Assembly: GCA_947626915.1 (NCBI GenBank)
Contig: CANQUA010000008.1
Span: 135-64,134 of the forward strand
From: an uncultured Lachnospiraceae bacterium
GTDB lineage: Bacteria; Bacillota; Clostridia; Lachnospirales; Lachnospiraceae
Reading direction: 5' to 3'
DNA: 64,000 bases
Every line of letters starts with the position of its first letter. The stretch's first letter is position 1. Made by a program: the position numbers and the translations under genes. The notes beneath the pieces were generated by a model, which worked only from the letters and a program-made list of their open reading frames with translations, was not told the DNA's origin and did no database searches. Shown here one piece after another: positions 1 through 13,432 of the stretch.

Positions 1-1
1 G

Positions 2-274
2 CGGCTCGATATGGACGAACGCACGGTGGTTTATGATGACGAGGAAATCCCCCTGACGGCGCGGGAGTTTAATATCATCTACAAGCTGCTGTCCTATCCG
101 GGCAAGACCTTCACCCGCACCCAGCTCATGGACGAGTTTTGGGACGCGGAAACGAACACTGCGCCGCGTGCCGTGGACGTTTATATGACGAAGCTGCGGG
201 GGAAGTTTGAGAAATGTACGGAATTTGAACTCAGGACCGTTCACGGTTTGGGCTACAAGGCGGTGATACTGTGA
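2..274 (+). CDS. OmpR-family response regulator, C-terminal winged helix (5' end outside window)
   Basis: LTAREFNIIYKL...TRTQLMDEFW...AVDVYMTKLR...RTVHGLGYK; frame is open to the window edge. Confidence 0.9.
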   Translation, partial: RLDMDERTVVYDDEEIPLTAREFNIIYKLLSYPGKTFTRTQLMDEFWDAETNTAPRAVDVYMTKLRGKFEKCTEFELRTVHGLGYKAVIL

Positions 275-1371
275 GGCCGGATTCAAGGTTAAGGCGGCTT
301 CTGTTCTCTCTGAGAAGTTATGCTGCCTTTTTTCTGCTGATGTCTTTCGTGATCACCTGCTGTATGCTGCTGTTTCTGAACGCGCTGGCGGGCTCCATGG
401 AAATCGCCTATACTGAGCGCGGGATTCGTCTGGCCGCTGTCACAACATTCGTCAACGTAATCTTTCTGAGTCTGCTGTGTACCGCAATCGACGGCGTGCG
501 CCGGAAATATATGGTGGAACGCCCAGTGCGGCGGATCGTGCAGGGGGCAGAAAAACTCATGCAGGGCGACTTTTCCACACGAATCGAGCCCTATCATGGG
601 ATTGATGAACGATCCGGCTTTGACACGATCATCGACTATTTCAACCGCATGGCGGAAGAGCTTTCCGGCGTGGAGACCTTGCGGACGGATTTCATCGCCA
701 ATGTGTCCCACGAATTAAAAACGCCGCTGGCCGTCATGCAGAATTACGGAACCATGCTCCAAAGTCCCGATCTGACCGAAGCGCAGCGGATGGACTACGC
801 CAGGGCGATCACTGAGCAGTCCCGCCGTTTGGCTGACCTTATTACGAATATCTTGAAACTGAACCGTCTGGAAAACCAGCAGATTTATCCCGCCGCAAAG
901 CGGTACGATCTTGGCGGGCAGCTTGCCGAGTGCCTTCTGAACTTTGAAAGCACCTGGGAGAAAAAGAACATCGGCATTGAGACGGCTCTCGAAGAAGAAG
1001 TATTTGTGAAATCGGACGGCGAGCTTTTGTCCCTCGTCTGGAACAATCTGTTCTCCAACGCCCTGAAATTTACGGAAAGCGGCGGCACGGTGTCCGTGGC
1101 TTTGAAAACGGAGGGAGATTATGCCGCCGTCCGGGTGTCAGACACCGGCTGCGGTATTTCTCCGGAAATCGGCAAGCACATCTTTGAGAAGTTTTATCAG
1201 GGCGATACCTCTCATGCCACACAGGGCAACGGCTTGGGGCTGGCGCTGGTGAAACGGGTGGTGGATATTGTCGGCGGTACCATTTCCGTAGAGAGTGAGG
1301 TCGGAAAAGGCAGTACCTTTACTGTAAGAATCAGGAGGGCGGCGGATGGAGACATTCAAAAGAATCCTTAA
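271..1371 (+). CDS. Sensor histidine kinase (2 TM, HAMP, HisKA, HATPase)
   Basis: ANVSHELKTPL H-box, NLFSNALKF, DTGCGI and GNGLGL boxes; start overlaps regulator stop. Confidence 0.93.
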   Translation: MRPDSRLRRLLFSLRSYAAFFLLMSFVITCCMLLFLNALAGSMEIAYTERGIRLAAVTTFVNVIFLSLLCTAIDGVRRKYMVERPVRRIVQGAEKLMQGDFSTRIEPYHGIDERSGFDTIIDYFNRMAEELSGVETLRTDFIANVSHELKTPLAVMQNYGTMLQSPDLTEAQRMDYARAITEQSRRLADLITNILKLNRLENQQIYPAAKRYDLGGQLAECLLNFESTWEKKNIGIETALEEEVFVKSDGELLSLVWNNLFSNALKFTESGGTVSVALKTEGDYAAVRVSDTGCGISPEIGKHIFEKFYQGDTSHATQGNGLGLALVKRVVDIVGGTISVESEVGKGSTFTVRIRRAADGDIQKNP

Positions 1372-2260
1372 AAAGATATTCTGCCTGCCTCCTCTCCCAA
1401 CGGTTCTGGCAGCGCTTTTCGGCTACGGCTTTGTGATCGCCGTGTTTGCGTTTGATATACAGAACCCAATCCTGCAGTACGCCTCCTACATTGCTTCTGC
1501 CTATGCACTGATCGTCAGCATTACAGGGCTTGTCTATATCAATACGGCGATAGGCGGCGTCAGAAAATTTATCTCCGATCATCCGCTGATGAAAAAATTC
1601 CGCTCCACCAAGATGGGTGAAAAATACATGACCGATGTGCGTTTCCGGGCAGGAGTCTCGCTGTATCAGGGCTTTTTCATCAATCTCCTGTATATCGCCA
1701 TGAAGCTGGTATCCGGCATCGTGTACCGCTCCGCATGGTTTGCCGCGCTGGCGGTCTATTACCTTCTGCTGGCCGTGATGCGCTTTCTTTTAGTACGGCA
1801 GCTGAACATGCAGGACAAAGCGGCGGAACTCAGACGCTACCGGCTGTGCGGGATCCTGCTTTTGTTTATGAACCAGGCGCTCGCGGGAATTGTAATATTC
1901 ATGGTCCACCAGAACCGCGGATTTGAGTATCCGGGGCTGCTGATCTACGCCATGGCCGCCTATTCCTTTTATGCCGTCACCATTGCCATCATCAACATCA
2001 TCAAGACCCGGCGGCACAAAAGCCCGATTCTCTCAGCAGCCAAAGCCATCAGCTTTGTGGCGGCGCTGGTGTCCGTTCTGTCCCTGACCACTGCCATGCT
2101 CTCCCAGTTCGGCGGAGAGGACAACGCGGAATTCAACAGGACCATGACCGGCGCTGTAGGCGGCGGGGTCTGCATCATTGTGATCGGCATGGCAATCTAT
2201 ATGATCGGACGGGCAAATAAAAATCTGAAAAAAATTGAAATTAACAATTCTCGAACATAA
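1346..2260 (+). CDS. Multi-pass membrane protein of unknown function
   Basis: 304 aa, many hydrophobic segments; AGGAGG RBS upstream. Confidence 0.75.
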   Translation: METFKRILKKIFCLPPLPTVLAALFGYGFVIAVFAFDIQNPILQYASYIASAYALIVSITGLVYINTAIGGVRKFISDHPLMKKFRSTKMGEKYMTDVRFRAGVSLYQGFFINLLYIAMKLVSGIVYRSAWFAALAVYYLLLAVMRFLLVRQLNMQDKAAELRRYRLCGILLLFMNQALAGIVIFMVHQNRGFEYPGLLIYAMAAYSFYAVTIAIINIIKTRRHKSPILSAAKAISFVAALVSVLSLTTAMLSQFGGEDNAEFNRTMTGAVGGGVCIIVIGMAIYMIGRANKNLKKIEINNSRT

Positions 2261-2325
2261 CTTGAATATTTTGCAAACGGTTACCTGATACAATAACCGC
2301 GGGATCCTGAAAGGAGCAGAAGATC

Positions 2326-2709
2326 ATGGAAGAAAAGAAAGAGACTTTCACCTATACCTATTCCGCAAAAGAGCAAGAAGAAATCAAAAAGATCCGGGAC
2401 AAATACGCACCCCCGGCAAAAGAGGAAACCCCGATGGAGCAGCTTCGCCGACTTGACGAGAGCGCCACAAAGGGAGCAGCCATCGTCTCTCTGATCGTCG
2501 GGATCATCAGCGCTCTGATTTTGGGGGTTGGGATGTGCTGCACGATGCTGCCCGGCTGGGAGCGGTATTTCGTTCCGGGCATTGTAATCGGCGTGTCCGG
2601 CATCATCGGCATCATCGCGGCCTATCCGATCTACACACACATGGTAAAGCGTAAGAGGGAAAAACTTGCGCCGGAAATCATGCGGCTATCGGATGAGCTG
2701 ATGAAGTGA
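2326..2709 (+). CDS. Small 2-TM membrane protein
   Basis: AAGGAG RBS; charged N-terminus followed by two hydrophobic helices. Confidence 0.75.
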   Translation: MEEKKETFTYTYSAKEQEEIKKIRDKYAPPAKEETPMEQLRRLDESATKGAAIVSLIVGIISALILGVGMCCTMLPGWERYFVPGIVIGVSGIIGIIAAYPIYTHMVKRKREKLAPEIMRLSDELMK

Positions 2710-2720
2710 TTTTGTCAGTC

Positions 2721-2754
2721 AGACCGCTTACTGAAAACGTAGGCGGTCTTTTTC
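2721..2754 (+). terminator. Intrinsic terminator
   Basis: AGACCGCTTAC...GTAGGCGGTCT stem followed by a T-run. Confidence 0.75.
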
Positions 2755-2803
2755 TGTCATATTTATTGAAAACGCATTGATGAGGATACCGTAAAACTTT
2801 CTT

Positions 2804-3288
2804 ATGCCGCCCCACCCTTGGGACGGTCTGCTTTTTCACGGACAAAAAGCGGCTGTTCACGGACATTTCCGCAGGGCGCCCGTTCTTTTGCTATCCTGTT
2901 GTCGTGAGGATGCGCAAAGCGGCACATTGACAGCAGCAGAAAGGCAGTATCGTACTTCTATCTGTCTGCGCGGTATGCAGGGTTCGATAGCCCTTTTGGG
3001 ATAGCGAATAAAACGATCCTGCCGTCCATCGGCGCGGCGCCTTGGGTTATTATTTTTCTGTTTTGCAAAACATGTATCTGGAAACAAATCATGAATGGAG
3101 GGTATCTGATGCGTCATTTTTATTTTCGTCTCATTCTTGGGATCGTCTGGCTGGCCGCGGCGCTGTTTTGTATCACGGGCGCCGATCTCCCCTTTGCGGC
3201 GCTGTACGCCGCGTTGGGCATTCTGTTCCTGTGATCCGCCTGTTTAGTCCGGAAAAAGGTGGGAAGCAGCAAAGATGATCGGGAGTAA
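2804..3288 (+). pseudogene. Decayed membrane-protein genes (frameshift near 3001; in-frame TGA at 3232-3234 in MRHFYFRLILGIVW...)
   Basis: Hydrophobic reading continues across a -1 shift at 3001; ORF from ATG 3109 (GGAGGG RBS) is interrupted by TGA and reads on to TAA 3288. Confidence 0.45.
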
Positions 3289-3589
3289 CGAAAGGAACCG
3301 AACGGAACTTCTGAAAAAGGCTTATCTGATCATGGCGTTCGCCCTGAAACCGAAACTGCTCCTGCTGGACGAGCCTGTGAACGGACTGGATTTTCAAAGC
3401 ACCGAATATCTGTATGAGCAGATCCATCACTACCGACAATGCGGCGCCGCCCTCTTCTCGTCCCACATCCCGGAAAGCATCTGTCTTACATCTGACCGGG
3501 TGCTGGTACTGGAGCAGGGGCAGATCCGGAGAAGGTTTGCGGGACAGGAAATCGAAGCCGCCAGGATCCGGGAGGTGCTGAAAGAATGA
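3275..3589 (+). pseudogene. ABC ATPase C-terminal remnant
   Basis: LLLLDEPVNGLD Walker B/D-loop and FSSH H-loop present; no Walker A or signature motif. Confidence 0.8.
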
Positions 3590-4492
3590 ACATCCTGAAA
3601 GCCCTCTTAAAACAGCTTCTGGGCGCCAGGTATGAGCGCGCCGGAAAGAGCCTGATGGTTTATCCTGTATGTTTCCATCCACGCTGCGGGAATTGAAACC
3701 GAGATTGCTGCTTCGGTTCTCTTTCTGACGGCGGCGGCCGTTTCGGCGGGGATCCTGTGGCAGGCCTTTCATTCTCCGGGGAACGCAGACAGCATGACCG
3801 GGCTGTTTCTGCTGCCGTTTGCGGGCAGAAACATGACGTTTTCCATCGTCCTGGCCTTTACCGGCTACACGCTGGTCACAAAAACGTTTCCTGTATTGAC
3901 GCTGTTCTTTGCGGTCCATGAATGGAGCGCGGCGCAGATCGCCGTGTCACTGCTCTGCGCCTGTCATGGCTGTTTCCTGACCGCCGCCGCTCTGCCGTTT
4001 CTGTTGGGGCAGTTCGACGGGCTCCCCGTCCTGCCGCTGGGATTCGCCATCCTGTGCCTGAATACGCCGGTCTGCATATTGCTGTCCTGCGACCCGGCGC
4101 TGGAGCAGGCGGTCCGGATGCTGCCCGGACAGGCCCTCCGCTTTTGTCCCCGCTATTGCGTCTTCCTTTCTTTCGTCAACGCGGCGGTGAGCGGCGTGTA
4201 TCTGGCGAGCTGGCAATGGCGGTACGGCGGCGTGGACGGTCCGGAAATCGCCGCCGCGCTGCTGATCGCTCTGCAGAGCGCGATCCTGTCTGTCCTGCTG
4301 GAATGGTTTTGCCCGATCCGCAGCTGGAAGATCGAAAGCGATCTGTGGCAACACCCGCGCAAATACGTTGTGCCCGTCGTCATGCTGCTCCTCGCAGGGC
4401 TGATCGGTATCTGGCCCGTAAGCCTATGGATCCTGTTCTGCGCCGTTTTAGCAGAAATTTTAATCTTACCAAAAATCGCAAGGAGGATTTGA
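3586..4492 (+). pseudogene. ABC-type permease, frameshifted near 3660
   Basis: ATG 3586 overlaps the ATPase stop; MNILKALLKQLLGARYERAGKSL shifts frame into ILYVSIHAAG... and joins the 3794-4492 ORF. Confidence 0.65.
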
Positions 4493-4496
4493 ACCC

Positions 4497-4718
4497 ATGA
4501 AAAATACGAAACGCTGCCCAAAGTGCAATTCGCAGAATATTGTCCGCGTCCCCGACAACCAGAACCGCCACGCAAGCGGCAACAACATTTATACCTCAAC
4601 TTTTACGCTGATGAAAAAAATCCCCGTAATACGCTATGTCTGCTGCGACTGCGGCTATGTGGAGAACTGGGTCGAAACCCAGAGCGGACGCATGGAGATC
4701 AAACGCACTTTCGGCTAA
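4497..4718 (+). CDS. Small zinc-ribbon protein
   Basis: CPKC and CCDCGY motifs; AGGAGG RBS. Confidence 0.75.
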   Translation: MKNTKRCPKCNSQNIVRVPDNQNRHASGNNIYTSTFTLMKKIPVIRYVCCDCGYVENWVETQSGRMEIKRTFG

Positions 4719-4763
4719 AATCCCGGCAAAACCGGTTTTCATTCAAAAACCCCCTTCGCGCTG

Positions 4764-4793
4764 TCATAGCGGACCTGCCGCCGCTCATATAGT
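4764..4793 (+). promoter_or_regulatory. sigmaE-like (mother-cell) promoter ahead of the small ORF and LSR1
   Basis: TCATAGC-15 bp-CATATAGT; ATA to CATA spacing 17 bp. Confidence 0.55.
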
Positions 4794-4825
4794 ATACAGC
4801 CATTCTTTGAAAGGAGGCTGCACAT

Positions 4826-4984
4826 TTGAAAAGCAGCGAAAAGCCGGCGGCCGCAGGCGTATGCAAAAGTGTTTTCAAAAGCGGCGAAAACACGATTTCA
4901 GGAGAACAATTCACCCAAATGTGGATCCAGCTGATCAATCAGATTGAAAAGGACAGAGCTCTCCATGCTGCCCGGAAAGAATGA
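4826..4984 (+). CDS. 52-aa small protein not in the ORF track; candidate recombination directionality factor for LSR1
   Basis: AAGGAGG RBS then TTG; MKSSEKPAAAGVCKSVFKSGENTISGEQFTQMWIQLINQIEKDRALHAARKE*; function inferred from position. Confidence 0.6.
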   Translation: MKSSEKPAAAGVCKSVFKSGENTISGEQFTQMWIQLINQIEKDRALHAARKE

Positions 4985-5028
4985 CAAGCCTTTCTCCGCA
5001 GGCCCCTGCCTGCGCGGAAAAGGCTTGT
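4984..5028 (+). other. Stem-loop between the small ORF and LSR1
   Basis: ACAAGCCTTT...GCAGG / CCTGC...AAAGGCTTGT imperfect inverted repeat. Confidence 0.55.
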
Positions 5029-5051
5029 TCCGTCTCTGAGGAGGGCCAAAC

Positions 5052-6605
5052 ATGAAAGCCGCCATTTATTGCCGCTTATCCGAAGAAGACCGAAACAAGC
5101 AGTCCGAAACCGACGACAGCTGCAGCATACAAAATCAGAAGGCCATGCTGCTGCAATACACGATGGAACAGGGGTGGGAACTTTACAACATTTACAGCGA
5201 CGACGACTACACCGGCTCCGACCGGCGGCGTCCGGAGTTTAACCGCCTGCTGCGGGACGCAGAGCAGCGCAAATTTGATATTGTCCTCTGCAAGACCCAG
5301 TCGCGCTTTACCCGCGAATTGGAATTGGTGGAAAAATACATCCATGGGCTGTTCCCAATATGGGGGATCCGCTTCGTCAGCATTGTCGACAACGCGGATA
5401 CCGCAAATAAGGGAAACAAAAAGTCCCGTCAGATCAACGGGCTCGTCAACGAATGGTACCTGGAGGATATGTCTGAGAATATCCGAAGCGTCCTAACAAA
5501 CCGGCGGAAGAACGGTTTTCACATCGGCGCATTCGCCCTTTACGGTTACAGGAAAGACCCCGAACAAAAGGGACACCTGATCGTCGACGAGGAAGCCGCG
5601 GCCGTCGTCCGCGAGGTATTTGCCCTTTTCGCCCAGGGTTACGGAAAAACCGCGATCGCCCGTATGCTCAACGACCGGGGCATACCCAATCCCACGGAAT
5701 ATAAACGCCTGCACGGGCTGCGCTACCGGCAGCCGAAGATGAAAAACAGCACCCTATGGAACTATTCCGCCATTTCGGATATGCTGACCAACGAAATCTA
5801 CATCGGCAATCTGGTCCAGGGCAAATACGGCAGCGTGTCCTACAAAACAAAGCAAAACAAGCCGCGCCCGAGAAGCGAATGGTACATCGTCGAGGGGACG
5901 CACGAGCCGGTCATTGACCGGGAACTGTGGGACAGGGTACAGGCACTGGCCGCCCAGAAAGCCAGGCCTTTTGCCGGCGGCGCCATCGGATTATTCGCCG
6001 GAAAAGCCCGCTGCGCAAACTGCGGTTATGTCATGCGCTCTTCCAAAACCCACAATAAACATTACCTGCAGTGCCCCAGCCGCCATCTGTCGAAAGACGC
6101 CTGCACCGGCTCTTTCATCTCTGTGGAAAAACTGGAACGGCTCGTCCTGGACGAGCTGAACCGTCTGGCAGCGGAGTATCTGGACCAGGACGCGCTCGAA
6201 CAGAACATCCGGCTCTGCGACAATCTGCAGGACCGGAAAGCCCGCCTGCTCTCCGATCTGGCGGCCTATCAGAAAAAGATCGCGGAGTATTCCAAAGGCA
6301 TACGGGAGCTTTACATGGATAAGGTCAGGGGGATCCTGTCCGAAAGCGATTATGCAGCGCTGTCAAAGGATCTTGCCGCGGAACGCAGCCGCCTGGAACG
6401 CGTCGCCGCCGACGCAGAAACGCGGCTGTCCGAACTCGAAGCCGGCATTGCGGCGGGCGGCCATCGCCGCGAGCGAATCGAATCCTATACCCGCCTGGAG
6501 CATCTCACCCGGGAGATCGTGGAAACGCTGATCGGTCACATATCGGTCGGCAGGCGTATCCCCGGCACCAGGGACGTCCCGATCGAGATCCACTGGAACT
6601 TTTGA
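5052..6605 (+). CDS. Large serine recombinase LSR1 (resolvase, recombinase, zinc ribbon, coiled coil; SpoIVCA/CisA-like)
   Basis: YCRLS catalytic motif, DDDYTG, KTQSRFTR, THEPVI, CANCG...C zinc ribbon; uninterrupted 517 aa. Confidence 0.95.
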   Translation: MKAAIYCRLSEEDRNKQSETDDSCSIQNQKAMLLQYTMEQGWELYNIYSDDDYTGSDRRRPEFNRLLRDAEQRKFDIVLCKTQSRFTRELELVEKYIHGLFPIWGIRFVSIVDNADTANKGNKKSRQINGLVNEWYLEDMSENIRSVLTNRRKNGFHIGAFALYGYRKDPEQKGHLIVDEEAAAVVREVFALFAQGYGKTAIARMLNDRGIPNPTEYKRLHGLRYRQPKMKNSTLWNYSAISDMLTNEIYIGNLVQGKYGSVSYKTKQNKPRPRSEWYIVEGTHEPVIDRELWDRVQALAAQKARPFAGGAIGLFAGKARCANCGYVMRSSKTHNKHYLQCPSRHLSKDACTGSFISVEKLERLVLDELNRLAAEYLDQDALEQNIRLCDNLQDRKARLLSDLAAYQKKIAEYSKGIRELYMDKVRGILSESDYAALSKDLAAERSRLERVAADAETRLSELEAGIAAGGHRRERIESYTRLEHLTREIVETLIGHISVGRRIPGTRDVPIEIHWNF

Positions 6606-6636
6606 CCGCAGATCGTTCTTACAGGATCGCCCCATC

Positions 6637-6858
6637 TGCCGCCAGGTCCTCAAACAGATCGGTGATCGGATCACCCTTGGACTGAAACTCGCAGGCGCTG
6701 AAGGGCACGCCGCCCGCCGCCTGGGGCCAGATCCCGGCCGTATGGTCGATATAATAGGGACCCAGACCGGAGGCGGCGATCTGCTCCGCGCTCAGGCCTT
6801 TGGTCAGCTGATGGATGATCGATGCAATGATCTCCATGTGAGCCAGTTCTTCCGTACC
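6637..6858 (-). pseudogene. cotJC: cotJC piece B (middle 74 codons of the manganese-catalase-family spore coat protein)
   Basis: GTEELAHMEIIASIIHQLTKG...YYIDHTAGIWPQAAGGVPFSACEFQSKGDPITDLFEDLAA. Confidence 0.92.
6849..6858. repeat. att core, left junction of the LSR2 element
   Basis: CTTCCGTACC, identical to 12777-12786; followed by arm GAAGCACCGAAAATGCTCCT. Confidence 0.9.
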
Positions 6859-7002
6859 CACAGAAGCACCGAAAATGCTCCTCGGCTCTGCCGGGCAAAG
6901 CGGGACCAGACGTGTGATCTCCTACTAAAATCCCAAGAAAAATCCCTGTTCTTTTACCGGAATGTCCGTTATACTATAAGTAACTTCTGAGGAGGACCGT
7001 TT

Positions 7003-7665
7003 ATGTACCGAAAGATACTGATCATCGACGACGATATCTATATTGGGAACCTGATGGACGATGCTTTGAGCAGGGAGGGCTATCAGATCTTCCACGCGTA
7101 TTCCGGCACGGAGGCGCTGCTGTTTTTGGCGCAGGCCAGGCCGGACCTGATCCTGCTCGACCTGATGCTGCCGGGACTTTCCGGAGAAGAGCTGCTGCCG
7201 CAGATCAAGGGGATCCCCGTCATTGTCGTAAGCGCGAAAGTGGACGTGGACGACAAAGTCAACCTGCTGCTCGGCGGCGCGGCGGACTACATCACCAAAC
7301 CATTTCAGGTCAAAGAGCTTCTGGCCAGGGTCGCCGTGCAGTTCCGCAGGCTCGATCCGGCCTCTCCCGCCCCGGTCCTGGAGTACGGCGGCCTCCGGCT
7401 CGATCCCGTTACCCATATCGTAACCGCCGGCCAAAAGGAACTGAAACCTACCAGAACGGAATACGCGATCCTGAAAATACTCATGCAGAACCCCTCGCAG
7501 ATCGCAACCAAATCGCTGCTTTTAGACCGCATAAGCGCAGATACGCCGGACTGCACAGAAAACTCTCTTAAAATGCACATCAGCAATCTCCGGAAAAAGC
7601 TGCGTGAAGCGGACGGCCAGGATCACATCGAAGCGGTCTGGGGGATCGGGTTCCGGCTGCGCTGA
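7003..7665 (+). CDS. OmpR-family response regulator
   Basis: ILIIDDD, DLILLDLMLP, DYITKPF, AVWGIGFR; GAGGAGG RBS. Confidence 0.95.
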   Translation: MYRKILIIDDDIYIGNLMDDALSREGYQIFHAYSGTEALLFLAQARPDLILLDLMLPGLSGEELLPQIKGIPVIVVSAKVDVDDKVNLLLGGAADYITKPFQVKELLARVAVQFRRLDPASPAPVLEYGGLRLDPVTHIVTAGQKELKPTRTEYAILKILMQNPSQIATKSLLLDRISADTPDCTENSLKMHISNLRKKLREADGQDHIEAVWGIGFRLR

Positions 7666-7671
7666 AAAAAT

Positions 7672-7714
7672 CTTTACGGTTTCTTTACCGGTTCCTTTAC
7701 CGCTTTCTTTACGG
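7672..7714 (+). promoter_or_regulatory. Four CTTTAC(G/C)G direct repeats, probable response-regulator binding site
   Basis: Copies at 7672, 7683, 7695 and 7707, ahead of the ABC ATPase gene. Confidence 0.6.
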
Positions 7715-7758
7715 TTCCATGATACGATACCGGCATCAAATCAAGGAGGTATGCCTTT

Positions 7759-8673
7759 ATGGACTATGTTCTCAGAACAAACGCTTTGACCAAAAGCTAT
7801 AAAGGGGCCAAAGCGCTGGCCGGTCTCACGATGAATGTGCCCAAGGGAGCGATCTACGGGTTCGTGGGGAAAAACGGCGCCGGCAAGACGACGCTGATCC
7901 GCCTGATCTGCGGCCTGCAGGAGCCGGATTCGGGAGACTACACGCTGTACGGCAGAAAAAACGCGGAAAAGGACATTACAAGCTCCCGCCGCCGGATGGG
8001 CGCGGTCGTGGAAACGCCCGCCATTTATCTGGATCTGACGGCGGAGGAAAATCTCAGGCAGCAGTACCGGATCCTGGGACTGCCCTCGTTTGACGGGCTT
8101 TCCGACATTTTAAAACTGGTGGGGCTGGATCAAACCGGGAAAAAGAAAGCGAAAAACTTTTCCCTGGGGATGCGGCAGCGGCTCGGGATCGCCGTCGCTC
8201 TCGCCGGGGATCCGGACTTTCTGGTTCTGGACGAACCCGCCAACGGACTCGACCCCCAGGGGATCATCGAGATCCGGGAACTGATCCTGGAGCTGAACCG
8301 CAGGCAGCAGATCACAGTCCTGATCTCCAGCCATATCCTGGACGAACTGTCAAAGTTCGCGACCCATTACGGTTTCATCGATGGCGGGCGCATGGTAAAA
8401 GAAATCAGCGCCGAAGAACTGGAGGCCGCCTGCCGGAAATGCGTCCGCATGGAGGTCAGCAGCACGAAAGCCCTCGCCCGCGTCCTCGACAAAATGAAGA
8501 TCGACTATACGATCCTGAGCGGCACGACCGCCGACGTCTACGCGAAAGTAAACATCTCCCGCCTGAGCAGCGCGCTTGCAGGGGAGAACTGCGAACTGAT
8601 CTCGGCGCAGGAACGGGATGAAAGTCTGGAAAGCTATTATGTGAGTCTGGTGGGAGGCGGAACGAATGAATAA
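7759..8673 (+). CDS. ABC transporter ATPase (BcrA/lantibiotic-immunity-like)
   Basis: GKNGAGKT, FSLGMRQR, LVLDEPANGLD, ISSH. Confidence 0.93.
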   Translation: MDYVLRTNALTKSYKGAKALAGLTMNVPKGAIYGFVGKNGAGKTTLIRLICGLQEPDSGDYTLYGRKNAEKDITSSRRRMGAVVETPAIYLDLTAEENLRQQYRILGLPSFDGLSDILKLVGLDQTGKKKAKNFSLGMRQRLGIAVALAGDPDFLVLDEPANGLDPQGIIEIRELILELNRRQQITVLISSHILDELSKFATHYGFIDGGRMVKEISAEELEAACRKCVRMEVSSTKALARVLDKMKIDYTILSGTTADVYAKVNISRLSSALAGENCELISAQERDESLESYYVSLVGGGTNE

Positions 8674-9496
8674 ACTGCTGCGGTCAAATTTTTCAAGGCT
8701 CTGGAGAGACAAACTGTTCTGGCTCTGCATGGGAGCCATGCTCATCTATGCGGTCCTGTTCATGTTAAACGGATGCAGGCAGGCGGCCGCGGATATGTCG
8801 GAATATTCGTATTCTATCGATAACTATTATTTCCATTTCGCGTTATCGATCGGACTCTTCTGCTCGGTGTGCAGCAGTATGTTTTTCGGGACGGAATACA
8901 GCGACGGAACGATCCGGAATAAGATCATCGTCGGACACACAAGGACCGACATCTATCTGGCGAGCCTGATCACCACCTTTGCGGCGACGCTGCTGATCAT
9001 GTCGGTGTGGCTCGTCGGAGCGCTCGTCGCCGTCCCTGCGCTTGGCTTCTGGAAAATAGGCGCTTTGCGGCTGCTGAGCTTCCTGCTGATCGCCGTTATG
9101 TTCGTCCTCGCGCTTTCCGCGATCTGTACGGTGATCAATTTGCTGTCGTCCGGCAAGGCCGATGCGTTTCTCATCTCGATCCTGCTGTTCATTGGCCTGC
9201 TGCTTTTGGCAAGCATGATCTACAACGGCCTCAGCGAGCCGGAAATGGTAAGCGGCGTTCAGATCACCCAGAATGGGCTCGATCTAACGGAACCTGCCCC
9301 GAATCCGAACTATGTCACCGGGATGAAGCGGGAGATCTATGATTTCATCGTCGATTTCCTGCCGACGGGACAGGGACTGCGGATGTGGCAGCTGGAGATC
9401 GCGCATCCGGTCCGGATGATCCTCTCCTCGCTGTTTATCACGGCCGTCACGACGGCGGGCGGGATGTTGGCGTTTAAGAGGAAGAATATCCAGTGA
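8666..9496 (+). CDS. ABC-2 type permease
   Basis: Six hydrophobic segments, EYSDGTIRNKIIVG motif; overlaps the ATPase gene. Confidence 0.88.
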   Translation: MNKLLRSNFSRLWRDKLFWLCMGAMLIYAVLFMLNGCRQAAADMSEYSYSIDNYYFHFALSIGLFCSVCSSMFFGTEYSDGTIRNKIIVGHTRTDIYLASLITTFAATLLIMSVWLVGALVAVPALGFWKIGALRLLSFLLIAVMFVLALSAICTVINLLSSGKADAFLISILLFIGLLLLASMIYNGLSEPEMVSGVQITQNGLDLTEPAPNPNYVTGMKREIYDFIVDFLPTGQGLRMWQLEIAHPVRMILSSLFITAVTTAGGMLAFKRKNIQ

Positions 9497-9705
9497 CAGG
9501 AATTCAGTCCGGGGGATGGTTTTCGTTATTCGGCGGATTCTTATTATCGAACAAATGATACTCGTTGCCTGATGGTTTTCGCCGCTTGATGGACGATTCC
9601 ATCATCGGATGGATTTTTGCTGCCTGATAGACGATGCCCGTCACCTGATGGATTTTCGTTACCTGACGCGTAATTCTCATCGTACGATCATAAGGGGGAT
9701 TATTT

Positions 9706-10599
9706 ATGGAAATGTGGTTATGGGCACTGAGCGGTATCATGGCAGCCGCCATTCTTTTACTGCTTCTCAAAATACATGCCCTGCAAACGGCCGCAAAGGA
9801 AATCGAGAGCGCCTTTGCCGACAGGCTCATGACTGATACCAACACGCTGATCGATCTCTCTTCCGCGGACCGGCACATGCGCCGCCTGGCAAACGGCATC
9901 AACGTCCAGCTGAGAAAGCTGCGGGAGGAACGGCGCCGTTTCGAGCAGGGAGATCTGGAACTCAAAAACGCGGTCACAAACATTTCCCACGATCTGCGTA
10001 CCCCTTTGACGGCCATCTGCGGCTACCTGGATCTGCTGGAAGAGGAGGAAACGTCCGAAAAAGCGGCCTATTATCTGCAGATCATCCGGGACCGGGCAGA
10101 GCTTTTAACGCAGCTGACGGAAGAATTGTTCCGATATTCGGTCATCCTTTCCGCCGAAAGCAGCGGGAACTGGGAGCCTGTGAATGTGGGCGGTGTGCTG
10201 GAAGAAAGCATCGCGTCGTTCTACACGGCGCTAAAAGAGCGGGACATTTCGCCAACGATCCGGATCCCGGAAAAGAAAATCGTCCGGACGCTGGACCGCT
10301 CCGCTCTGGCCCGCGTATTCTCCAATCTGCTGAACAACGCAATCAAGTACAGCGACGGCGATCTGGAGATCATCCTATCGGAAACAGGCGCGGTGATCTT
10401 CACGAACACGGCGTCCGGATTAAACGAAGTACAGGTAGGAAGACTGTTCGACCGCTTTTATACGGTCGAAGCCGCCAGGAAATCGACGGGCCTGGGCCTG
10501 GCGATCGCCAGAACGCTGATCGAGCAGATGAACGGGACCATATCCGCCGAATACCAAAATAACCGGCTGAACATTACCATCGCGCTGCCGGACGAGTAA
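9706..10599 (+). CDS. Sensor histidine kinase
   Basis: NISHDLRTPL, NLLNNAIKY, STGLGL. Confidence 0.93.
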   Translation: MEMWLWALSGIMAAAILLLLLKIHALQTAAKEIESAFADRLMTDTNTLIDLSSADRHMRRLANGINVQLRKLREERRRFEQGDLELKNAVTNISHDLRTPLTAICGYLDLLEEEETSEKAAYYLQIIRDRAELLTQLTEELFRYSVILSAESSGNWEPVNVGGVLEESIASFYTALKERDISPTIRIPEKKIVRTLDRSALARVFSNLLNNAIKYSDGDLEIILSETGAVIFTNTASGLNEVQVGRLFDRFYTVEAARKSTGLGLAIARTLIEQMNGTISAEYQNNRLNITIALPDE

Positions 10600-10601
10600 G
10601 G

Positions 10602-10644
10602 GACAACGCCTGCGGGAGTTTGGCAGCTCCTCGCGGGCGTTGTC
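10602..10644 (+). terminator. Stem-loop downstream of the kinase
   Basis: GACAACGCC...GGCGTTGTC stem; weak T tail. Confidence 0.5.
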
Positions 10645-10707
10645 TTATGGGGGCGGACGCCGCGTCTACCTGCGCCCCGTATCGGCCCACCAAAAACGTT
10701 TTCCTCG

Positions 10708-10737
10708 TTATATGGGACAAACACCGGCTCATATATT
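10708..10737 (+). promoter_or_regulatory. sigmaE/sigmaK-like promoter ahead of the small ORF and LSR2
   Basis: TTATATG...CATATATT; ATA to CATA spacing 17 bp. Confidence 0.45.
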
Positions 10738-10812
10738 AGAATACGCCGTCGATCTGCTGTACGGTTCTACACAGCAGATACCGGCTGACTCTTTTGGAAA
10801 ACGAGGGAAACA

Positions 10813-11049
10813 TTGGCTGTGAAAACCAGGGAATTCGTTTATACGGGCGGCCCCGTTCCCGATCTGGACGGACCGGAATACGCGGCGTTCCTTTTGAATC
10901 TGCAAAAAGGGATCCTCCTTTCTCTGGAGCAGAGGAACCTATTGACCGCTTCGCAGCGGGAGCGCTGTCTGGCCATGCTCAAGGATCCGTGCATACAAAA
11001 GGCCAAAGCCACGTCCGCTGGGCCCGCCGGGAAAGGGGGTTCCGCATGA
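10813..11049 (+). CDS. 78-aa helical protein; candidate directionality factor for LSR2
   Basis: GAGGG RBS; stop overlaps the LSR2 ATG (ATGA at 11046-11049); function inferred from position. Confidence 0.65.
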   Translation: MAVKTREFVYTGGPVPDLDGPEYAAFLLNLQKGILLSLEQRNLLTASQRERCLAMLKDPCIQKAKATSAGPAGKGGSA

Positions 11050-12758
11050 ACCGGTATGAGCGCCTGAACCAGAAACAAAAGGCTGTGACCACGAAGAAAA
11101 AAGTTGCGGCGTACTGCCGGGTCTCCACCGACGGCGAGGATCAGGCCAACTCGTTTGAAAGCCAAAAACGGTATTTCCGGCAGTATATCGAGCGCAATCC
11201 CGACTGGGAGCTTTACGAAATATTTGCCGACGAGGGTATCTCCGGCACAAACACCCGGAAGCGAAACGCATTTAACCGCATGATCGCCTGCGCCAAAAAC
11301 GGCGATTTCGATCTGATCATCACCAAAGAGATCTCCCGCTTCGCCAGAAACACACTGGACAGTATCTACTATACCCGGGACCTGAAAAAACATGGAATCG
11401 GCGTGATCTTTCTGAACGACAACATCCATACACTGGACAGCGACGCGGAGCTGCGCCTCGCCATCCTGTCTTCCATCGCGCAGGAGGAAAGCCGAAAGAC
11501 CTCGGAGCGTGTGAAATGGGGACAGAAACGCCGGATGGAACAGGGCGTCGTGTTCGGCAGGGACCTGCTCGGCTACGACGTCCGCGGCGGCAAATTGTAT
11601 ATCAATGAAGAGGGGGCAAAGATCGTCCGCCTTATCTTTCATAAATTTGTGGACGAGAGAAAAGGTACCCACGTCATCGCCCGGGAGCTTCGGGAGGAGG
11701 GGATCCCGCCCTGCCGCGGAAAGGAATGGCAGCATACCGTCATTCTCCGCATACTCCGCAACGAAAAATACTGCGGCGACCTGGTACAGAAAAAGACCTA
11801 TACGCCGGACTTTTTGTCCCACGAAAAGAAATACAACCGCGGACAGGAGGAATTTGTCATCCTGAAAGACCACCATGAGCCGATCGTTTCCCGCGAGCTG
11901 TTCGACGAGGCCAACCGGATCCTGGACGAGCGCTCCCGCACGGCTGCGGGAAAAGCAAGGTACTGCCATCCGGCCGCGCCAAATACAGAGGACGAACGTT
12001 CCTGCACAGTTGCAGGAAAGATCAGGTACTCCAGCCGCCACACGTTCTCCGGGAAGATCCGGTGCGGACAATGCGGCCACAGCTATGTGGCACGATATAA
12101 GACCCGCAGGGACGGGAGCCGGTACAGGGCGTGGCGCTGTCTGGAAGCCGTCCGAAACGGCCCTCCTCGTTCGGATTCGGCAGGCAGTCCGGCCGGCTGC
12201 GCATCTCCCGGTATCCGCAATGAGGATGCCGTCCATCTCATGTGCCTCGTCACAAAGGCGCTGAGATTCGACCGCTCAAAGTTCCAGGACCGTCTGCTCT
12301 CTGTGATCCGAACCGCAATCGCCACGGATGCCGGGGGCGCGGATACCGAAAAGCGAAAGGCGCGGATCCAGGCCATAGAAAACAAACGGGCCCGGCTGAT
12401 CGAACTCTATCTGGCCGGCGATGTGACAAAAGAGGAATTTACAGCCGCCAGCGCAAAATGCGACAGCGAGATCGCCGGGCTGCAGCCGGACACAGCAAAG
12501 ATGGAGCGGCAGCCGGCGCAGCCCCCGCGGAAGCAGCAGGAGCTGATCCGCGCGATGGACGGCGCGGTCTCTGAGCTTTTAAACGGTGTGGAATACGAGG
12601 ATACGTTTTACCGGCAGATCCTGGATCAGATGGTGGTGATAGACCGCGACCATATAGACGTGTATCTGCATTTTCTTCCGGTCAAATGGAGCTACACGGC
12701 CGCGGGATGCGGAAATGCTCCGCGCCGGAGACCCGCTCAACCGAAAAAGAGCCCCTGA
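11046..12758 (+). CDS. Large serine recombinase LSR2 (570 aa; start reassigned from 10794)
   Basis: AAYCRVST, FADEGISG, KEISRFAR, HHEPIVS, CGQCG zinc ribbon, coiled coil; GGGGG RBS before ATG 11046. Confidence 0.94.
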   Translation: MNRYERLNQKQKAVTTKKKVAAYCRVSTDGEDQANSFESQKRYFRQYIERNPDWELYEIFADEGISGTNTRKRNAFNRMIACAKNGDFDLIITKEISRFARNTLDSIYYTRDLKKHGIGVIFLNDNIHTLDSDAELRLAILSSIAQEESRKTSERVKWGQKRRMEQGVVFGRDLLGYDVRGGKLYINEEGAKIVRLIFHKFVDERKGTHVIARELREEGIPPCRGKEWQHTVILRILRNEKYCGDLVQKKTYTPDFLSHEKKYNRGQEEFVILKDHHEPIVSRELFDEANRILDERSRTAAGKARYCHPAAPNTEDERSCTVAGKIRYSSRHTFSGKIRCGQCGHSYVARYKTRRDGSRYRAWRCLEAVRNGPPRSDSAGSPAGCASPGIRNEDAVHLMCLVTKALRFDRSKFQDRLLSVIRTAIATDAGGADTEKRKARIQAIENKRARLIELYLAGDVTKEEFTAASAKCDSEIAGLQPDTAKMERQPAQPPRKQQELIRAMDGAVSELLNGVEYEDTFYRQILDQMVVIDRDHIDVYLHFLPVKWSYTAAGCGNAPRRRPAQPKKSP

Positions 12759-12776
12759 CAAGGAGCATTTCAGGGG

Positions 12777-12786
12777 CTTCCGTACC
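12777..12786. repeat. att core, right junction of the LSR2 element
   Basis: CTTCCGTACC preceded by arm AGGAGCATTTCAGGGGCTTC. Confidence 0.9.
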
Positions 12787-12969
12787 TACATCGGTCAGTA
12801 CCGCCTTTCCGATGTCATAGGGCATCGCGTAACGCTGGGACAGATAGCGCATGGAAGCCGCGCTTTCCCCGTCCGGACCGCCGTACTGGCTGGCAATAAA
12901 CTGGGCCAGCTGCGGATTGGGGTTCGTAATCTTTACCGGGTACTGCAGGCGTTTTTCATATCTCCACAT
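12778..12969 (-). pseudogene. cotJC: cotJC piece A (codons 1-64); reads into att sequence and stops at 12682
   Basis: MWRYEKRLQYPVKI...QYGGPDGESAASMRYLSQRY...LTDVGTE; directly follows cotJB. Confidence 0.93.
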
Positions 12970-12972
12970 ATA

Positions 12973-13230
12973 CTAACGTCCTCCTTCCCAGGGCCAGGGA
13001 CCCTGCGCCCACATCCAATAGCCGCCGGCCGGGCTGACGCTCTCGGCGGTCAGCGGGCCGTAACCGGACTGATACGCGTTCATCGCGTCGCCGCGCATCC
13101 GCACGACCGACTGATAATAGGCCAGCGCCATCTGGTCGCAGGGATGCGTATCCAGAAACAGCGCGGCATCGTCCATGGCGAAACTGGTCTGATCGATGAC
13201 ATTTAAAAGCTGCTTCTCATTCTCAGACAT
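12973..13230 (-). CDS. cotJB: Spore coat protein CotJB
   Basis: LLNVIDQTSFAMDDAALFLDTHP...YGPLT...WMWAQGPWPWE. Confidence 0.93.
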   Translation of the reverse strand: MSENEKQLLNVIDQTSFAMDDAALFLDTHPCDQMALAYYQSVVRMRGDAMNAYQSGYGPLTAESVSPAGGYWMWAQGPWPWEGGR

Positions 13231-13432
13231 GGGCGCACCTCCCTATGACAAACGGATAATCCAGCTCCGGGAAAATGGTTCCCTGTCTCAGGCCCTGCTC
13301 CAGGGTATACGTCTGACGCCACTGCTGCCACGGGACATACCCCATGCCCACGGGAAACTGTTCGATACAGCCGGCTCCGCTATTGGGACAGTTCATGGCC
13401 GCAGGCGACTGGTTCCTGCAAGAACAACTCAT
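13223..13432 (-). CDS. cotJA: Spore coat associated protein CotJA
   Basis: GMGYVPWQQW...LRQGTIFPELDYPF; overlaps cotJB start. Confidence 0.92.
   Translation of the reverse strand: MSCSCRNQSPAAMNCPNSGAGCIEQFPVGMGYVPWQQWRQTYTLEQGLRQGTIFPELDYPFVIGRCAHV

What the first reader, a model, noticed from the sequence alone, without database searches (positions are those of the whole stretch)
5052..13432. Spore-coat gene cotJC cut into at least three pieces by two separate serine-recombinase elements
Seen: cotJA-cotJB are followed by a cotJC start (12969-12778, ending LTDVGTE). About 5.9 kb away the gene resumes in the same frame (6858-6637, GTEELAH...EDLAA), then breaks off again beside a second intact LSR. 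Joining A and B gives 135 codons. Each LSR sits at the right end of its element, antisense to cotJC. Known: single LSR elements are excised from sporulation genes (skin/SpoIVCA in sigK, SPbeta/SprA in spsM). Inference: a full-length CotJC needs two independent excisions, an AND-gate developmental rearrangement in a gut-type clostridium. I cannot confirm whether cotJC interruption, single or double, is already catalogued.
Basis: partly seen in the sequence, partly recalled or inferred. Interest (0 to 1): 0.95.

Follow-up and report, generated by a model that had tools for sequence, protein, structure and literature searches.

The report
Spore-coat gene split by two recombinase elements
In this gut Lachnospiraceae genome the spore-coat gene cotJC is cut into three intact pieces by two different mobile elements, each with its own cotJC-specific serine recombinase behind a sporulation-type promoter, and the same gene turns out to be a repeated landing site for such elements in hundreds of gut Clostridia.

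Summary
cotJA-cotJB is followed by cotJC codons 1-64. A 5,928-bp element follows, then codons 65-135, then a second element. The missing third piece (codons 136-216) lies on another contig of the same genome (C29). Joining the pieces at the short shared cores (GGTACGGAAG and GCAGA) gives a perfect 216-codon CotJC, with dN/dS about 0.04 against intact orthologues.

- **Site-specific recombinases.** Each recombinase belongs to a large family that sits next to a cotJC fragment broken at the same codon: 68 of 80 fetched loci for one family and 75 of 80 for the other.
- **Sporulation-type module.** Each recombinase is preceded by a conserved small ORF behind a conserved sigmaE-type promoter. The strict form of that promoter pattern also finds the host's spoIVA.
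- **Not unique to this genome.** Three-piece cotJC genes recur in other genomes.
- **A second copy exists.** A complete cotJABC paralogue operon lies on C11, so the spore is not left without any CotJC-type protein.

My best reading is two independent mother-cell excisions, with probability about 0.6. Single cotJC interruptions are already catalogued. The double interruption and the scale of the hotspot appear to be undescribed.

The parts
13223..13432 (-). cotJA
   Evidence: PF11007, E 2e-17. A sigmaE-like GCATAAT-N14-AATACACG lies upstream.
12973..13230 (-). cotJB
   Evidence: PF12652, E 1e-28.
12778..12969 (-). cotJC piece A, codons 1-64, ending TDVGTE
   Evidence: Mn_catalase profile positions 1-65; translation.
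12777..12786 (.). Core 1 copy (GGTACGGAAG on the - strand) at the junction of piece A and element 1
12751..12766 (-). Terminator-like hairpin with a T-run just inside element 1, directly after piece A. It is also one arm of the reconstructed attP1.
6859..12786 (.). Element 1, 5,928 bp counting one core copy. It holds the LSR1 module and an intact two-component system plus lantibiotic-protection-type ABC transporter.
11046..12758 (+). LSR1, a 570-aa large serine recombinase
   Evidence: Resolvase, Recombinase and Zn_ribbon_recom domains. 419 relatives were found; 68 of 80 fetched lie within 400 bp of a cotJC fragment, 66 of them antisense to a piece ending at aa 60-82.
10813..11049 (+). Small ORF 1 (78 aa, TTG start). 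Its stop overlaps the LSR1 ATG. Candidate directionality factor or accessory protein.
   Evidence: Conserved upstream of 76 of 80 LSR1 relatives. No Pfam or NCBIfam match.
10708..10737 (+). SigmaE-like promoter 1: TTATATG-GGACAAACACCGGCT-CATATATT, with a SpoIIID-box-like GGGACAAAC in the spacer
7003..10599 (+). Element 1 cargo: OmpR-type regulator (7003-7665), ABC ATPase (7759-8673), ABC-2 permease (8666-9496), histidine kinase (9706-10599)
6849..6858 (.). Core 1 copy at the junction of element 1 and piece B
6637..6858 (-). cotJC piece B. It reads GTE, which repeats codons 62-64 inside the core, and then codons 65-135, ending EDLAA.
   Evidence: Mn_catalase profile positions 63-150.
6635..6639 (.). 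Core 2 copy (GCAGA on the - strand) at the junction of piece B and element 2. The partner copy is at C29:35881-35885.
5052..6605 (+). LSR2, a 517-aa large serine recombinase with a DUF4368 C-terminus
   Evidence: More than 567 relatives at 77-87% identity; 75 of 80 fetched lie within 400 bp of a cotJC fragment broken at aa 130-147.
4983..5029 (+). Strong hairpin between small ORF 2 and LSR2
   Evidence: -34.9 kcal/mol, z = -3.9. A hairpin sits in the same place in L267.
4826..4984 (+). Small ORF 2 (52 aa, TTG start). Candidate directionality factor or accessory protein.
   Evidence: Matched by tblastn upstream of the LSR gene in nearly all of the 80 fetched LSR2-family loci; 73 had enough upstream sequence to analyse. 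No family match.
4764..4793 (+). SigmaE-like promoter 2: TCATAGC-GGACCTGCCGCCGCT-CATATAGT
1..6634 (.). The part of element 2 inside the window. It continues through C8:1-134, a gap of a few hundred bases, and C29:38955 down to 35886, for about 10.1-10.5 kb in all. The cargo is a two-component system, membrane proteins, a truncated ABC ATPase (3275-3589) and a Zn-ribbon ORF.

Best explanation
**What is there.** One of the genome's two cotJC genes, the last gene of a cotJABC operon, is interrupted at codons 64/65 and 135/136 by two independent integrative elements.
- Element 1 is 5,928 bp and carries an antimicrobial-peptide-type ABC transporter with a two-component system.
- Element 2 is about 10 kb. 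Its cargo is partly decayed and it spans a contig break.

**How each element is built.** Each is bounded by a short direct repeat of cotJC sequence. Its joined ends form an attP-like inverted repeat. It carries a conserved cassette of sigmaE-type promoter, small ORF and large serine recombinase. Both recombinases belong to large families whose natural attB is that exact spot in cotJC.

**Most likely mechanism (inferred).** The elements entered by attP x attB integration. During sporulation, sigmaE RNA polymerase in the mother cell turns on each small ORF, and with it or separately the recombinase. Each recombinase then joins its own attL and attR. Only when both circles have left does the mother-cell chromosome carry a full-length cotJC. 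The forespore keeps both elements.

**Shown versus inferred.** The anatomy, the site specificity, the conservation of the cassette and the integrity of the pieces are shown. Excision, its timing, and the role of the small ORFs as directionality factors are inferred.
For: - **Complete three-piece gene.** The pieces join in frame at the shared cores.
- **Purifying selection.** The rejoined gene against intact same-genus orthologues has dN/dS 0.037-0.049 at dS about 0.9-1.1. Most intact-intact pairs fall in the same range. None of 40 piece-A copies next to LSR1 relatives has a stop or an indel.
- **Site specificity.** 68 of 80 LSR1 relatives and 75 of 80 LSR2 relatives sit within 400 bp of a cotJC fragment broken at the same codon.
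- **att sites.** The joined ends form imperfect inverted repeats around the core. An 85%-identical LSR2 relative in a 107-kb IMG/VR contig carries a free attP of the same design.
- **Conserved cassette, variable cargo**.
- **Promoter conservation.** The ATA-N-CATA[CT] motif occurs at a fixed distance in 42/72 and 42/73 family members, against about 2 in shuffles.
- **Promoter specificity.** The strict pattern has only 11 hits in the genome. The four followed by an RBS and an ORF are spoIVA, the two small ORFs, and one Cys-rich ORF. The host's cotJA and spoIID promoters look alike.
- **Published consensus.** Mother-cell promoters have an ATA -35 and a CATAT-type -10 (PMC3789822).
- **Precedent.** The C. 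difficile skin directionality factor CD1234 is a 72-aa orphan protein under sigmaE and SpoIIID (PMC5025042).
- **Minimal elements.** Elements of 3.0-3.8 kb that hold little beyond the cassette exist in L112, L142, L118 and L113.
- **Element 2 orientation.** The gene order TM122-regulator-kinase is contiguous in three other genomes. This places the C29 end next to the C8 start, in the orientation that gives deletion rather than inversion.
Against: - The assembly holds no rejoined or circular junction. Exact scans of metagenome contigs for attP1 and attB1 found nothing.
- **An intact paralogue.** A complete cotJABC operon exists on C11, so a dead copy could be tolerated.
- **Recent spread.** The LSRs are 77-87% identical across different families of Clostridia. 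Low dN/dS and intact pieces could therefore reflect young insertions.
- **Slightly higher dN/dS.** Pooled dN/dS of split piece A is a little above that of intact genes (0.16-0.25 against 0.12-0.17).
- **Partly circular promoter test.** I refined the strict pattern after seeing the two element promoters. Only the spoIVA hit is independent.
- **DUF4368 in LSR2.** From my own knowledge this domain is typical of TnpX/TndX-type recombinases, which excise without a directionality factor.
- **Element 2 continuity** across the contig gap is inferred.
Confidence: 0.6

Rival explanations
1. cotJC is a safe harbour only. The two elements are ordinary integrative, mobilisable or phage-derived elements that use highly conserved cotJC sequence as attB. 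The split copy is simply inactivated, the paralogous operon on C11 supplies CotJC function, and excision happens only for horizontal transfer, not as part of development.
For: - An intact paralogue operon is present.
- The same LSRs occur across families of Clostridia at 77-87% identity, and some sit in 30-107 kb viral contigs.
- A free attP form exists.
- The cargo is accessory: a transporter with a two-component system.
- The intact pieces could be explained by recent insertion.
Against: - A conserved mother-cell-type promoter sits in front of the small ORF in both families, and the strict pattern also finds the host's spoIVA.
- None of 40 piece-A copies is decayed.
- In this genus the orthologue is more often split than intact (13 against 8 genomes) and still evolves at dN/dS about 0.04.
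- Minimal elements of about 3 kb carry little or no cargo.
- Element 2's cargo is decaying while its LSR and the gene pieces are intact.
Confidence: 0.3
2. Only one of the two elements is still excisable, or element 2 is rearranged across the contig gap. In that case a full-length cotJC can never be rebuilt, and the locus is a decaying pseudogene despite its tidy appearance.
For: - Element 2 has a truncated ABC ATPase and crosses an unassembled gap.
- Its SpoIIID-like box is imperfect.
Against: - LSR2 is full length with its catalytic motif.
- The two ends form a proper attP-like inverted repeat that matches a real free attP.
- Gene order across the gap is conserved in three other genomes.
- Piece C is 98% identical to the query over its length, open and in frame.
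Confidence: 0.07
3. The layout is an assembly or binning artefact, with pieces from different strains or organisms stitched together in a metagenome-assembled genome.
For: - The genome has 107 contigs.
- Piece C is on a different contig, and the contig ends do not overlap.
Against: - Pieces A and B, both LSRs and both junctions lie on one contig.
- The three pieces are non-overlapping and together exactly complete the gene.
- The same layouts recur in many independent assemblies.
- Estimated contamination is 1.2%.
Confidence: 0.03

Closest known systems
skin elements in sigK (B. subtilis SpoIVCA; C. difficile CD1231 with directionality factor CD1234)
   Same: - An LSR element lies inside a mother-cell sporulation gene.
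- The LSR gene sits at one end of the element.
- A short common core allows precise rejoining.
- In C. difficile a small orphan protein under sigmaE and SpoIIID gives directionality (PMC5025042). Here two small orphan ORFs sit behind sigmaE-like promoters.
   Different: - The target is a coat gene rather than a sigma factor.
- Two unrelated elements lie in one gene.
- The LSRs are only distantly related to anything named: the best NCBIfam hits, CcrB and XisF, are far below their cut-offs.
- The small ORF lies directly upstream of the LSR.
- Excision has not been demonstrated.
gin element in gerE of Bacillus cereus ATCC 10987 (GirC/GirX; PMC5595907)
   Same: - A small, non-prophage intervening element that carries an LSR plus a small accessory gene.
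- It is reconstituted during sporulation.
- Composite or accreted forms are discussed for gin. Tandem LSR2-type elements are seen here in L036.
   Different: - Different gene, host class and recombinase lineage.
- Here the families are far larger and span several families of gut Clostridia.
SPbeta prophage in spsM (SprA/SprB; PMC4191935, PMC5499854)
   Same: - A mobile element with a dual life: horizontal transfer and developmental excision from a spore-envelope gene.
- Some LSR2 relatives lie in phage-sized contigs, and one of these (L267) has a free attP.
   Different: - The two elements here carry no phage genes in the sequenced parts.
- The cargo is regulatory and transport genes.
Catalogued cotJC interruptions (Abe et al. 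2013 Mol Microbiol, as cited in bioRxiv 10.1101/2021.11.22.469490; Laceyella sacchari in bioRxiv 10.1101/2022.02.25.481979)
   Same: cotJC is interrupted by a skin-like, phage-related or transposon-related element.
   Different: - Those are single interruptions, listed without mechanism.
- Not reported there, as far as the texts I could read show: the double interruption, the recurrent sites, the dedicated LSR families, and the promoter and small-ORF cassette.
- The Abe 2013 paper itself was not readable here.
Heterocyst gene-interrupting elements of cyanobacteria (nifD/XisA, fdxN/XisF, hupL/XisC)
   Same: - Elements are excised from genes needed only in a terminally differentiated cell.
- From my own knowledge, some cyanobacterial genes carry several elements.
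- XisF is among the weak NCBIfam hits of both LSRs.
   Different: Different phylum, a different differentiated cell type, and partly tyrosine recombinases. This is an analogy, not family membership.

Membership tests
Sporulation gene-intervening elements (skin / SPbeta / vfbin / gin type) | Inserted inside the coding sequence of a mother-cell-expressed sporulation gene | tested here: met
   Both elements lie inside cotJC of a cotJABC operon. cotJ is sigmaE-dependent in B. subtilis (my own knowledge), and the cotJB-cotC/D operons are mother-cell sigmaK-dependent in C. difficile (PMC3789822).
Sporulation gene-intervening elements (skin / SPbeta / vfbin / gin type) | Encodes its own site-specific recombinase near one end | tested here: met
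   LSR1 ends 19 bp from its junction core and LSR2 ends 30 bp from its core.
Sporulation gene-intervening elements (skin / SPbeta / vfbin / gin type) | Recombination between attL and attR at a short common core restores an intact reading frame | tested here: met
   Joining in silico at GGTACGGAAG and GCAGA gives a 216-codon CotJC that is 89-93% identical to intact orthologues.
Sporulation gene-intervening elements (skin / SPbeta / vfbin / gin type) | Excision occurs during sporulation, in the mother cell | not testable with these tools
No junctions were found in the assembly or in metagenome contigs.
Sporulation gene-intervening elements (skin / SPbeta / vfbin / gin type) | Recombinase or directionality factor under a mother-cell sigma factor | tested here: inconclusive
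   Conserved sigmaE-like promoters precede small ORFs upstream of both LSRs, and the strict pattern also hits spoIVA. There are no expression data, and the function of the small ORFs is unknown.
Large serine recombinases | N-terminal resolvase catalytic domain with a serine nucleophile, a recombinase domain and a zinc ribbon | tested here: met
   PF00239, PF07508 and PF13408 are all above their cut-offs in both proteins. The motifs are AAYCRVS in LSR1 and AIYCRLS in LSR2.
CotJC / manganese catalase family | Mn_catalase fold with conserved Glu/His metal ligands, encoded after cotJA and cotJB | tested here: met
   PF05067 matches pieces A and B. The rejoined protein aligns to Mn catalases 6J42, 4R42 and 1JKU. 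E35, E65-x-x-H68, E136 and the REIVH motif are present. Assigning them as ligands relies on my memory of the L. plantarum enzyme.
TnpX/TndX-type clostridial transposons (Tn4451/Tn5397) | LSR with a DUF4368-type C-terminus, GA crossover dinucleotide, and mobilisation or conjugation genes | tested here: inconclusive
   LSR2 has DUF4368 (31 bits) and its core GCAGA contains GA. No ORF in the sequenced parts of either element got a relaxase or mobilisation annotation, though I ran no dedicated search for such genes. No sequence comparison with TnpX or TndX was made.

The most novel reading that the evidence does not exclude
cotJC of gut Clostridia is a multi-site docking platform for several LSR lineages. 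The lineages target four spots at or near the metal-ligand codons of the enzyme (about aa 27-33, 64/65, 135/136 and 166-180). All are wired to the mother-cell programme through a shared cassette of sigmaE promoter, small directionality factor and LSR. In genomes like this one, a single coat gene would then be rebuilt by two or three independent, orthogonal excisions. That would be a natural multi-input DNA logic gate in a terminally differentiating cell.
Probability: 0.4. Interest if true: 0.85.

Novelty: new variant of a known kind. Interest (0 to 1): 0.72.

Why it matters
- **For sporulation biology.** Developmental gene rearrangement would extend from one element per gene to several independent elements in one gene. 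It would also be common rather than exceptional in gut Lachnospiraceae and Oscillospiraceae: in this genus the orthologue is split in 13 of 21 genomes that have it.
- **For mobile-element biology.** The data show how integrases converge on the most conserved codons of a gene that is dispensable in growing cells, and how they may reduce their cost by leaving in the mother cell, which does not pass on its chromosome.
- **For tool development.** The two families offer hundreds of natural variants of LSR with a defined attB and attP and a candidate directionality factor. These parts are sought for genome engineering and for synthetic DNA logic.
- **For annotation.** Split cotJC pieces will be miscalled as pseudogenes or missed in genome annotation and in inventories of sporulation genes.

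Tried and rejected
- **Junctions in the assembly.** I searched for rejoined attB and circular attP junctions and found none.
- **Metagenome contigs.** Exact scans for the attP1 and attB1 junctions gave 0 hits each.
- **Contig overlap.** I looked for overlaps between contig ends to join C29 and C8 and found none. An exact-protein look-up of the element-2 kinase was not on record. The gap was bridged only by conserved gene order in three other genomes.
- **Downstream synteny as proof that piece C belongs to the operon.** This was rejected because the neighbours of cotJC differ among same-genus genomes.
- **Shared cargo with relatives.** Only the cassette is conserved.
- **Family searches for the small ORFs.** Pfam and NCBIfam gave nothing.
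- **Decayed N-terminus of the ABC ATPase in element 2.** I looked for it in all three frames. Only the C-terminal remnant is detectable.
- **Abe et al. 2013** could not be read.
- **Pooled dN/dS of split against intact piece A** gave only a small difference and cannot date the insertions.
- **The other three LSR genes of the genome** (C3, C23, C94) showed no obvious split sporulation gene beside them, and I did not pursue them.

Full report
**1. Observation**

The window is C8:135-64134 of a 3.18-Mb assembly in 107 contigs. On the minus strand:

- cotJA is 13223-13432 (PF11007).
- cotJB is 12973-13230 (PF12652).
- The first 64 codons of cotJC are 12778-12969 (Mn_catalase profile 1-65).
- A second cotJC segment, 6637-6858, begins with the repeated GTE and covers codons 65-135 (profile 63-150).

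Two full-length large serine recombinases (LSRs) lie on the plus strand. LSR1 is 11046-12758 and LSR2 is 5052-6605. Each has Resolvase, Recombinase and zinc-ribbon domains, and LSR2 also has DUF4368.

**2. The third piece and the paralogue**

A tblastn search of the whole assembly found three things:

- the two known pieces;
- a third piece on contig C29 (35637-35885, minus strand), covering codons 136-216 and the stop;
- a complete second cotJA-cotJB-cotJC operon on C11, with a 203-aa CotJC that is 64% identical.

The three pieces do not overlap and together make exactly one gene of 216 codons. The paralogue is a separate, conserved lineage. It is present and intact in most same-genus genomes.

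**3. Junctions**

- Piece A ends and piece B begins with the same 10 bases, GGTACGGAAG (window 12777-12786 and 6849-6858). Element 1 is therefore 5,928 bp.
- Piece B ends and piece C begins with GCAGA (window 6635-6639 and C29:35881-35885).
- Joining at these cores gives ...TDVGTE-ELAH... and ...EDLAA-EQKAR..., as in intact orthologues.
- The joined element ends (reconstructed attP1 and attP2) are imperfect inverted repeats around the core, as expected for LSR attP sites.
- An 85%-identical relative of LSR2 in a 107-kb IMG/VR contig (L267) carries an unintegrated site of the same design: GTTGTTCTTATAAG-ATTGCAGCAGATGGTACGAC-CGTATAAGAACAAC. This supports C29 as the true far end of element 2 and shows that this family exists in a free attP form.

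**4. Element 2 across the contig break**

- C8 begins about 95 codons into an OmpR-type regulator.
- C29 ends just after a small membrane-protein gene, with a ribosome-binding site.
- In three other genomes, the homologues of that membrane protein, the regulator and the kinase are contiguous in this order.
- The two contig ends are therefore most likely neighbours, with a gap of a few hundred bases. That makes element 2 about 10.1-10.5 kb and places its cores in direct orientation, which gives excision rather than inversion. This is inferred, not read.

**5. Cargo**

- Element 1 carries intact genes for an OmpR-type regulator, a VanS-like kinase, a lantibiotic-protection-type ABC ATPase and an ABC-2 permease. 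All are below the curated cut-offs.
- Element 2 carries two two-component systems, small membrane proteins and only the C-terminal remnant of an ABC ATPase. Part of its cargo is therefore decayed while LSR2 is intact.

**6. The recombinases are cotJC-specific**

- *LSR1:* 419 relatives in the species-representative genome collection. Of the best 80 (61-89% identical), 68 lie within 400 bp of a cotJC fragment. In 66 of these the LSR is antisense to a piece ending at residue 60-82, as in this window.
- *LSR2:* more than 567 relatives at 77-87% identity, in Lachnospiraceae, Oscillospiraceae, Anaerotignum and others. Of 80, 75 lie within 400 bp of a cotJC fragment broken at residue 130-147.
- *Two orientations in the LSR2 family.* In L267 the attP core lies the other way round relative to the LSR gene than in the attP2 reconstructed for this window. 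A flipped core would account for the two orientations.
- *Cargo.* It is not conserved. Only the recombination cassette is. Some LSR1 elements are only 3.0-3.8 kb.

**7. The multi-split gene is recurrent**

- In the same genus the orthologue is intact in 8 genomes and split in 13. The breaks cluster near residues 27-33, 59-65, 133-137 and 166-180.
- Among LSR loci where the neighbouring piece is visible, many pieces start at residue 24-40 or 61-65 rather than 1.
- The same middle piece of residues 62/63-136 occurs in Agathobaculum ammoniilyticum (L074), in L091, in a Dorea MAG (L125) and in at least ten IMG/VR contigs. In some of these a third LSR lineage occupies the residue-64 site.
- The layout in this window is thus one instance of a common pattern.

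**8. Where the breaks fall in the protein**

The rejoined protein aligns to manganese catalases. Break 1 lies one codon before the E65-x-x-H68 motif, and break 2 lies at E136. From my memory of the L. plantarum enzyme (Glu35, Glu66, His69, Glu148, His181), these are metal ligands. A plausible reason is that these are the most conserved bases of the gene, which gives an integrase a wide host range.

**9. State of the split gene**

- The rejoined gene against four intact same-genus orthologues has dN 0.034-0.043, dS 0.86-1.11 and dN/dS 0.037-0.049. Most intact-intact pairs fall in the same range.
- None of 40 piece-A copies beside LSR1 relatives has a stop or an indel.
- Pooled dN/dS is a little higher than in intact genes (0.16-0.25 against 0.12-0.17).
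- This argues against old pseudogenes but cannot exclude young insertions.

**10. Regulation**

- *Small ORFs.* Directly upstream of LSR1 is a 78-aa ORF whose stop overlaps the LSR1 start. It is conserved in 76 of 80 relatives. Upstream of LSR2 is a 52-aa ORF that tblastn matches in nearly all of the 80 fetched relatives. Neither matches any Pfam or NCBIfam family.
- *Promoters.* Both ORFs are preceded by a conserved promoter of the mother-cell type: TTATATG-N15-CATATATT and TCATAGC-N15-CATATAGT. The motif occurs at a fixed distance in 42/72 and 42/73 family members, against about 2 in shuffled sequences. It fits the published description of sigmaE promoters, with an ATA -35 and a CATAT-type -10 (PMC3789822).
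- *Genome-wide test.* A strict version of the pattern has 11 hits in the whole genome. Four are followed by a ribosome-binding site and an ORF: spoIVA, the two small ORFs, and one Cys-rich ORF. I shaped the pattern after seeing the two element promoters, so only the spoIVA hit is an independent check.
- *Host promoters.* The host's cotJA and spoIID promoters are similar.
- *SpoIIID-like box.* Many family members have GGACAAG-like or GTACAAG-like sequences in the spacer. These resemble the B. subtilis SpoIIID consensus as I remember it. In this window the LSR1 promoter matches well and the LSR2 promoter only partly.
- *Precedent.* In C. difficile skin, the directionality factor CD1234 is a 72-aa orphan protein under sigmaE and SpoIIID (PMC5025042).
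- *Hairpins.* A strong hairpin separates small ORF 2 from LSR2 (-34.9 kcal/mol, z = -3.9). A terminator-like hairpin lies just inside element 1, after piece A.

**11. What could not be done**

- No rejoined or circular junction is present in the assembly or in metagenome contigs.
- There is therefore no direct evidence of excision.

**12. Literature**

[quoted passage not shown] 2013, as cited in bioRxiv 10.1101/2021.11.22.469490; the paper itself was not readable).
- A skin-like element in cotJC of Laceyella sacchari is noted in bioRxiv 10.1101/2022.02.25.481979.
- Searches that paired cotJC or manganese catalase with terms for serine recombinases and gene interruption, and a wider search on interrupted sporulation genes in Lachnospiraceae, found no description of double interruption or of dedicated LSR families in gut Clostridia.

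**13. Verdict**

- The anatomy is confirmed and extended.
- The developmental two-step excision is the best-supported mechanism, at about 0.6. Its support is the target gene, the cassette, the promoters, the intact pieces and the close precedents. It remains untested.
- The main rival, at about 0.3, is that cotJC is only a safe landing site and the split copy is dead, covered by the paralogue.
- I rate the finding as a new variant of a known kind, with interest 0.72.

Noticed in passing
Relatives G001-G040; loci L016-L175 and L256-L303: Breaks in cotJC cluster at four places: about aa 27-33, 59-65, 133-137 and 166-180. Each is near a conserved metal-ligand motif of the Mn-catalase fold. In the same genus 13 genomes have a split orthologue and 8 an intact one, while the paralogue was intact in every genome where it was found.
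   Followed up: partly
L267:7551-7640 (IMG/VR contig IMGVR_UViG_3300045988_153380, 107 kb): An LSR2 relative (85% identical) is followed by a free attP: GTTGTTCTTATAAG-ATTGCAGCAGATGGTACGAC-CGTATAAGAACAAC. No cotJC lies nearby. The upstream promoter and small ORF are present, with TATATAGT in place of CATATAGT.
   Followed up: partly
L036 (Parablautia intestinalis), about 4551-7421: An attP-like junction lies directly after the LSR, a second small-ORF copy lies at 5460-5549, and the cotJC C-terminal piece appears only at 7224-7421. This looks like two LSR2-type elements accreted in tandem.
   Followed up: no
L291:8441-9295(-), and similarly L271, L293, L272, L295: In IMG/VR contigs that hold the middle cotJC piece (aa 63-136), the residue-64 site is occupied by a third LSR lineage that is only about 23-29% identical to LSR1 and LSR2. 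This means several LSR lineages have converged on the same site.
   Followed up: no
Phage collection records MT839280.1, MT837840.1 and other 4-10 kb 'Bacteriophage sp.' records from human faeces: These small unannotated records encode LSRs up to 45% identical to LSR1 or LSR2. They may be excised circles or fragments of similar mini-elements rather than phages.
   Followed up: no
window 3275-3589: An ABC ATPase remnant with only the Walker B region onwards. No N-terminal half is detectable in any frame upstream, so part of element 2's cargo is decayed.
   Followed up: yes
window 10738-10812: The leader between promoter 1 and small ORF 1 carries an insertion of about 60 nt with a hairpin (ATCTGCTGT...ACAGCAGAT). 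It is absent from every relative shown in the printed alignment.
   Followed up: no
window 16481-17419(-) and G000 C1, about 109098: The spoIID homologue in the window and spoIVA on C1 carry sigmaE-like promoters (ACATAAA-N14-CATAGAAT and GCATACT-N15-CATATATT). These are useful as this organism's own reference promoters.
   Followed up: partly
G000 C3:89424-90833, C23:4119-5456, C94:5588-7168: There are three further LSR genes in the genome. No split sporulation gene was obvious beside them. The C3 copy lies at a contig end.
   Followed up: partly
L172 and L174 (Faecousia MAGs): These LSR1 relatives (61% identical) are followed by cotJC aa 55/59-195 on the same strand. The LSR1 family therefore also occurs in the opposite orientation.
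   Followed up: no
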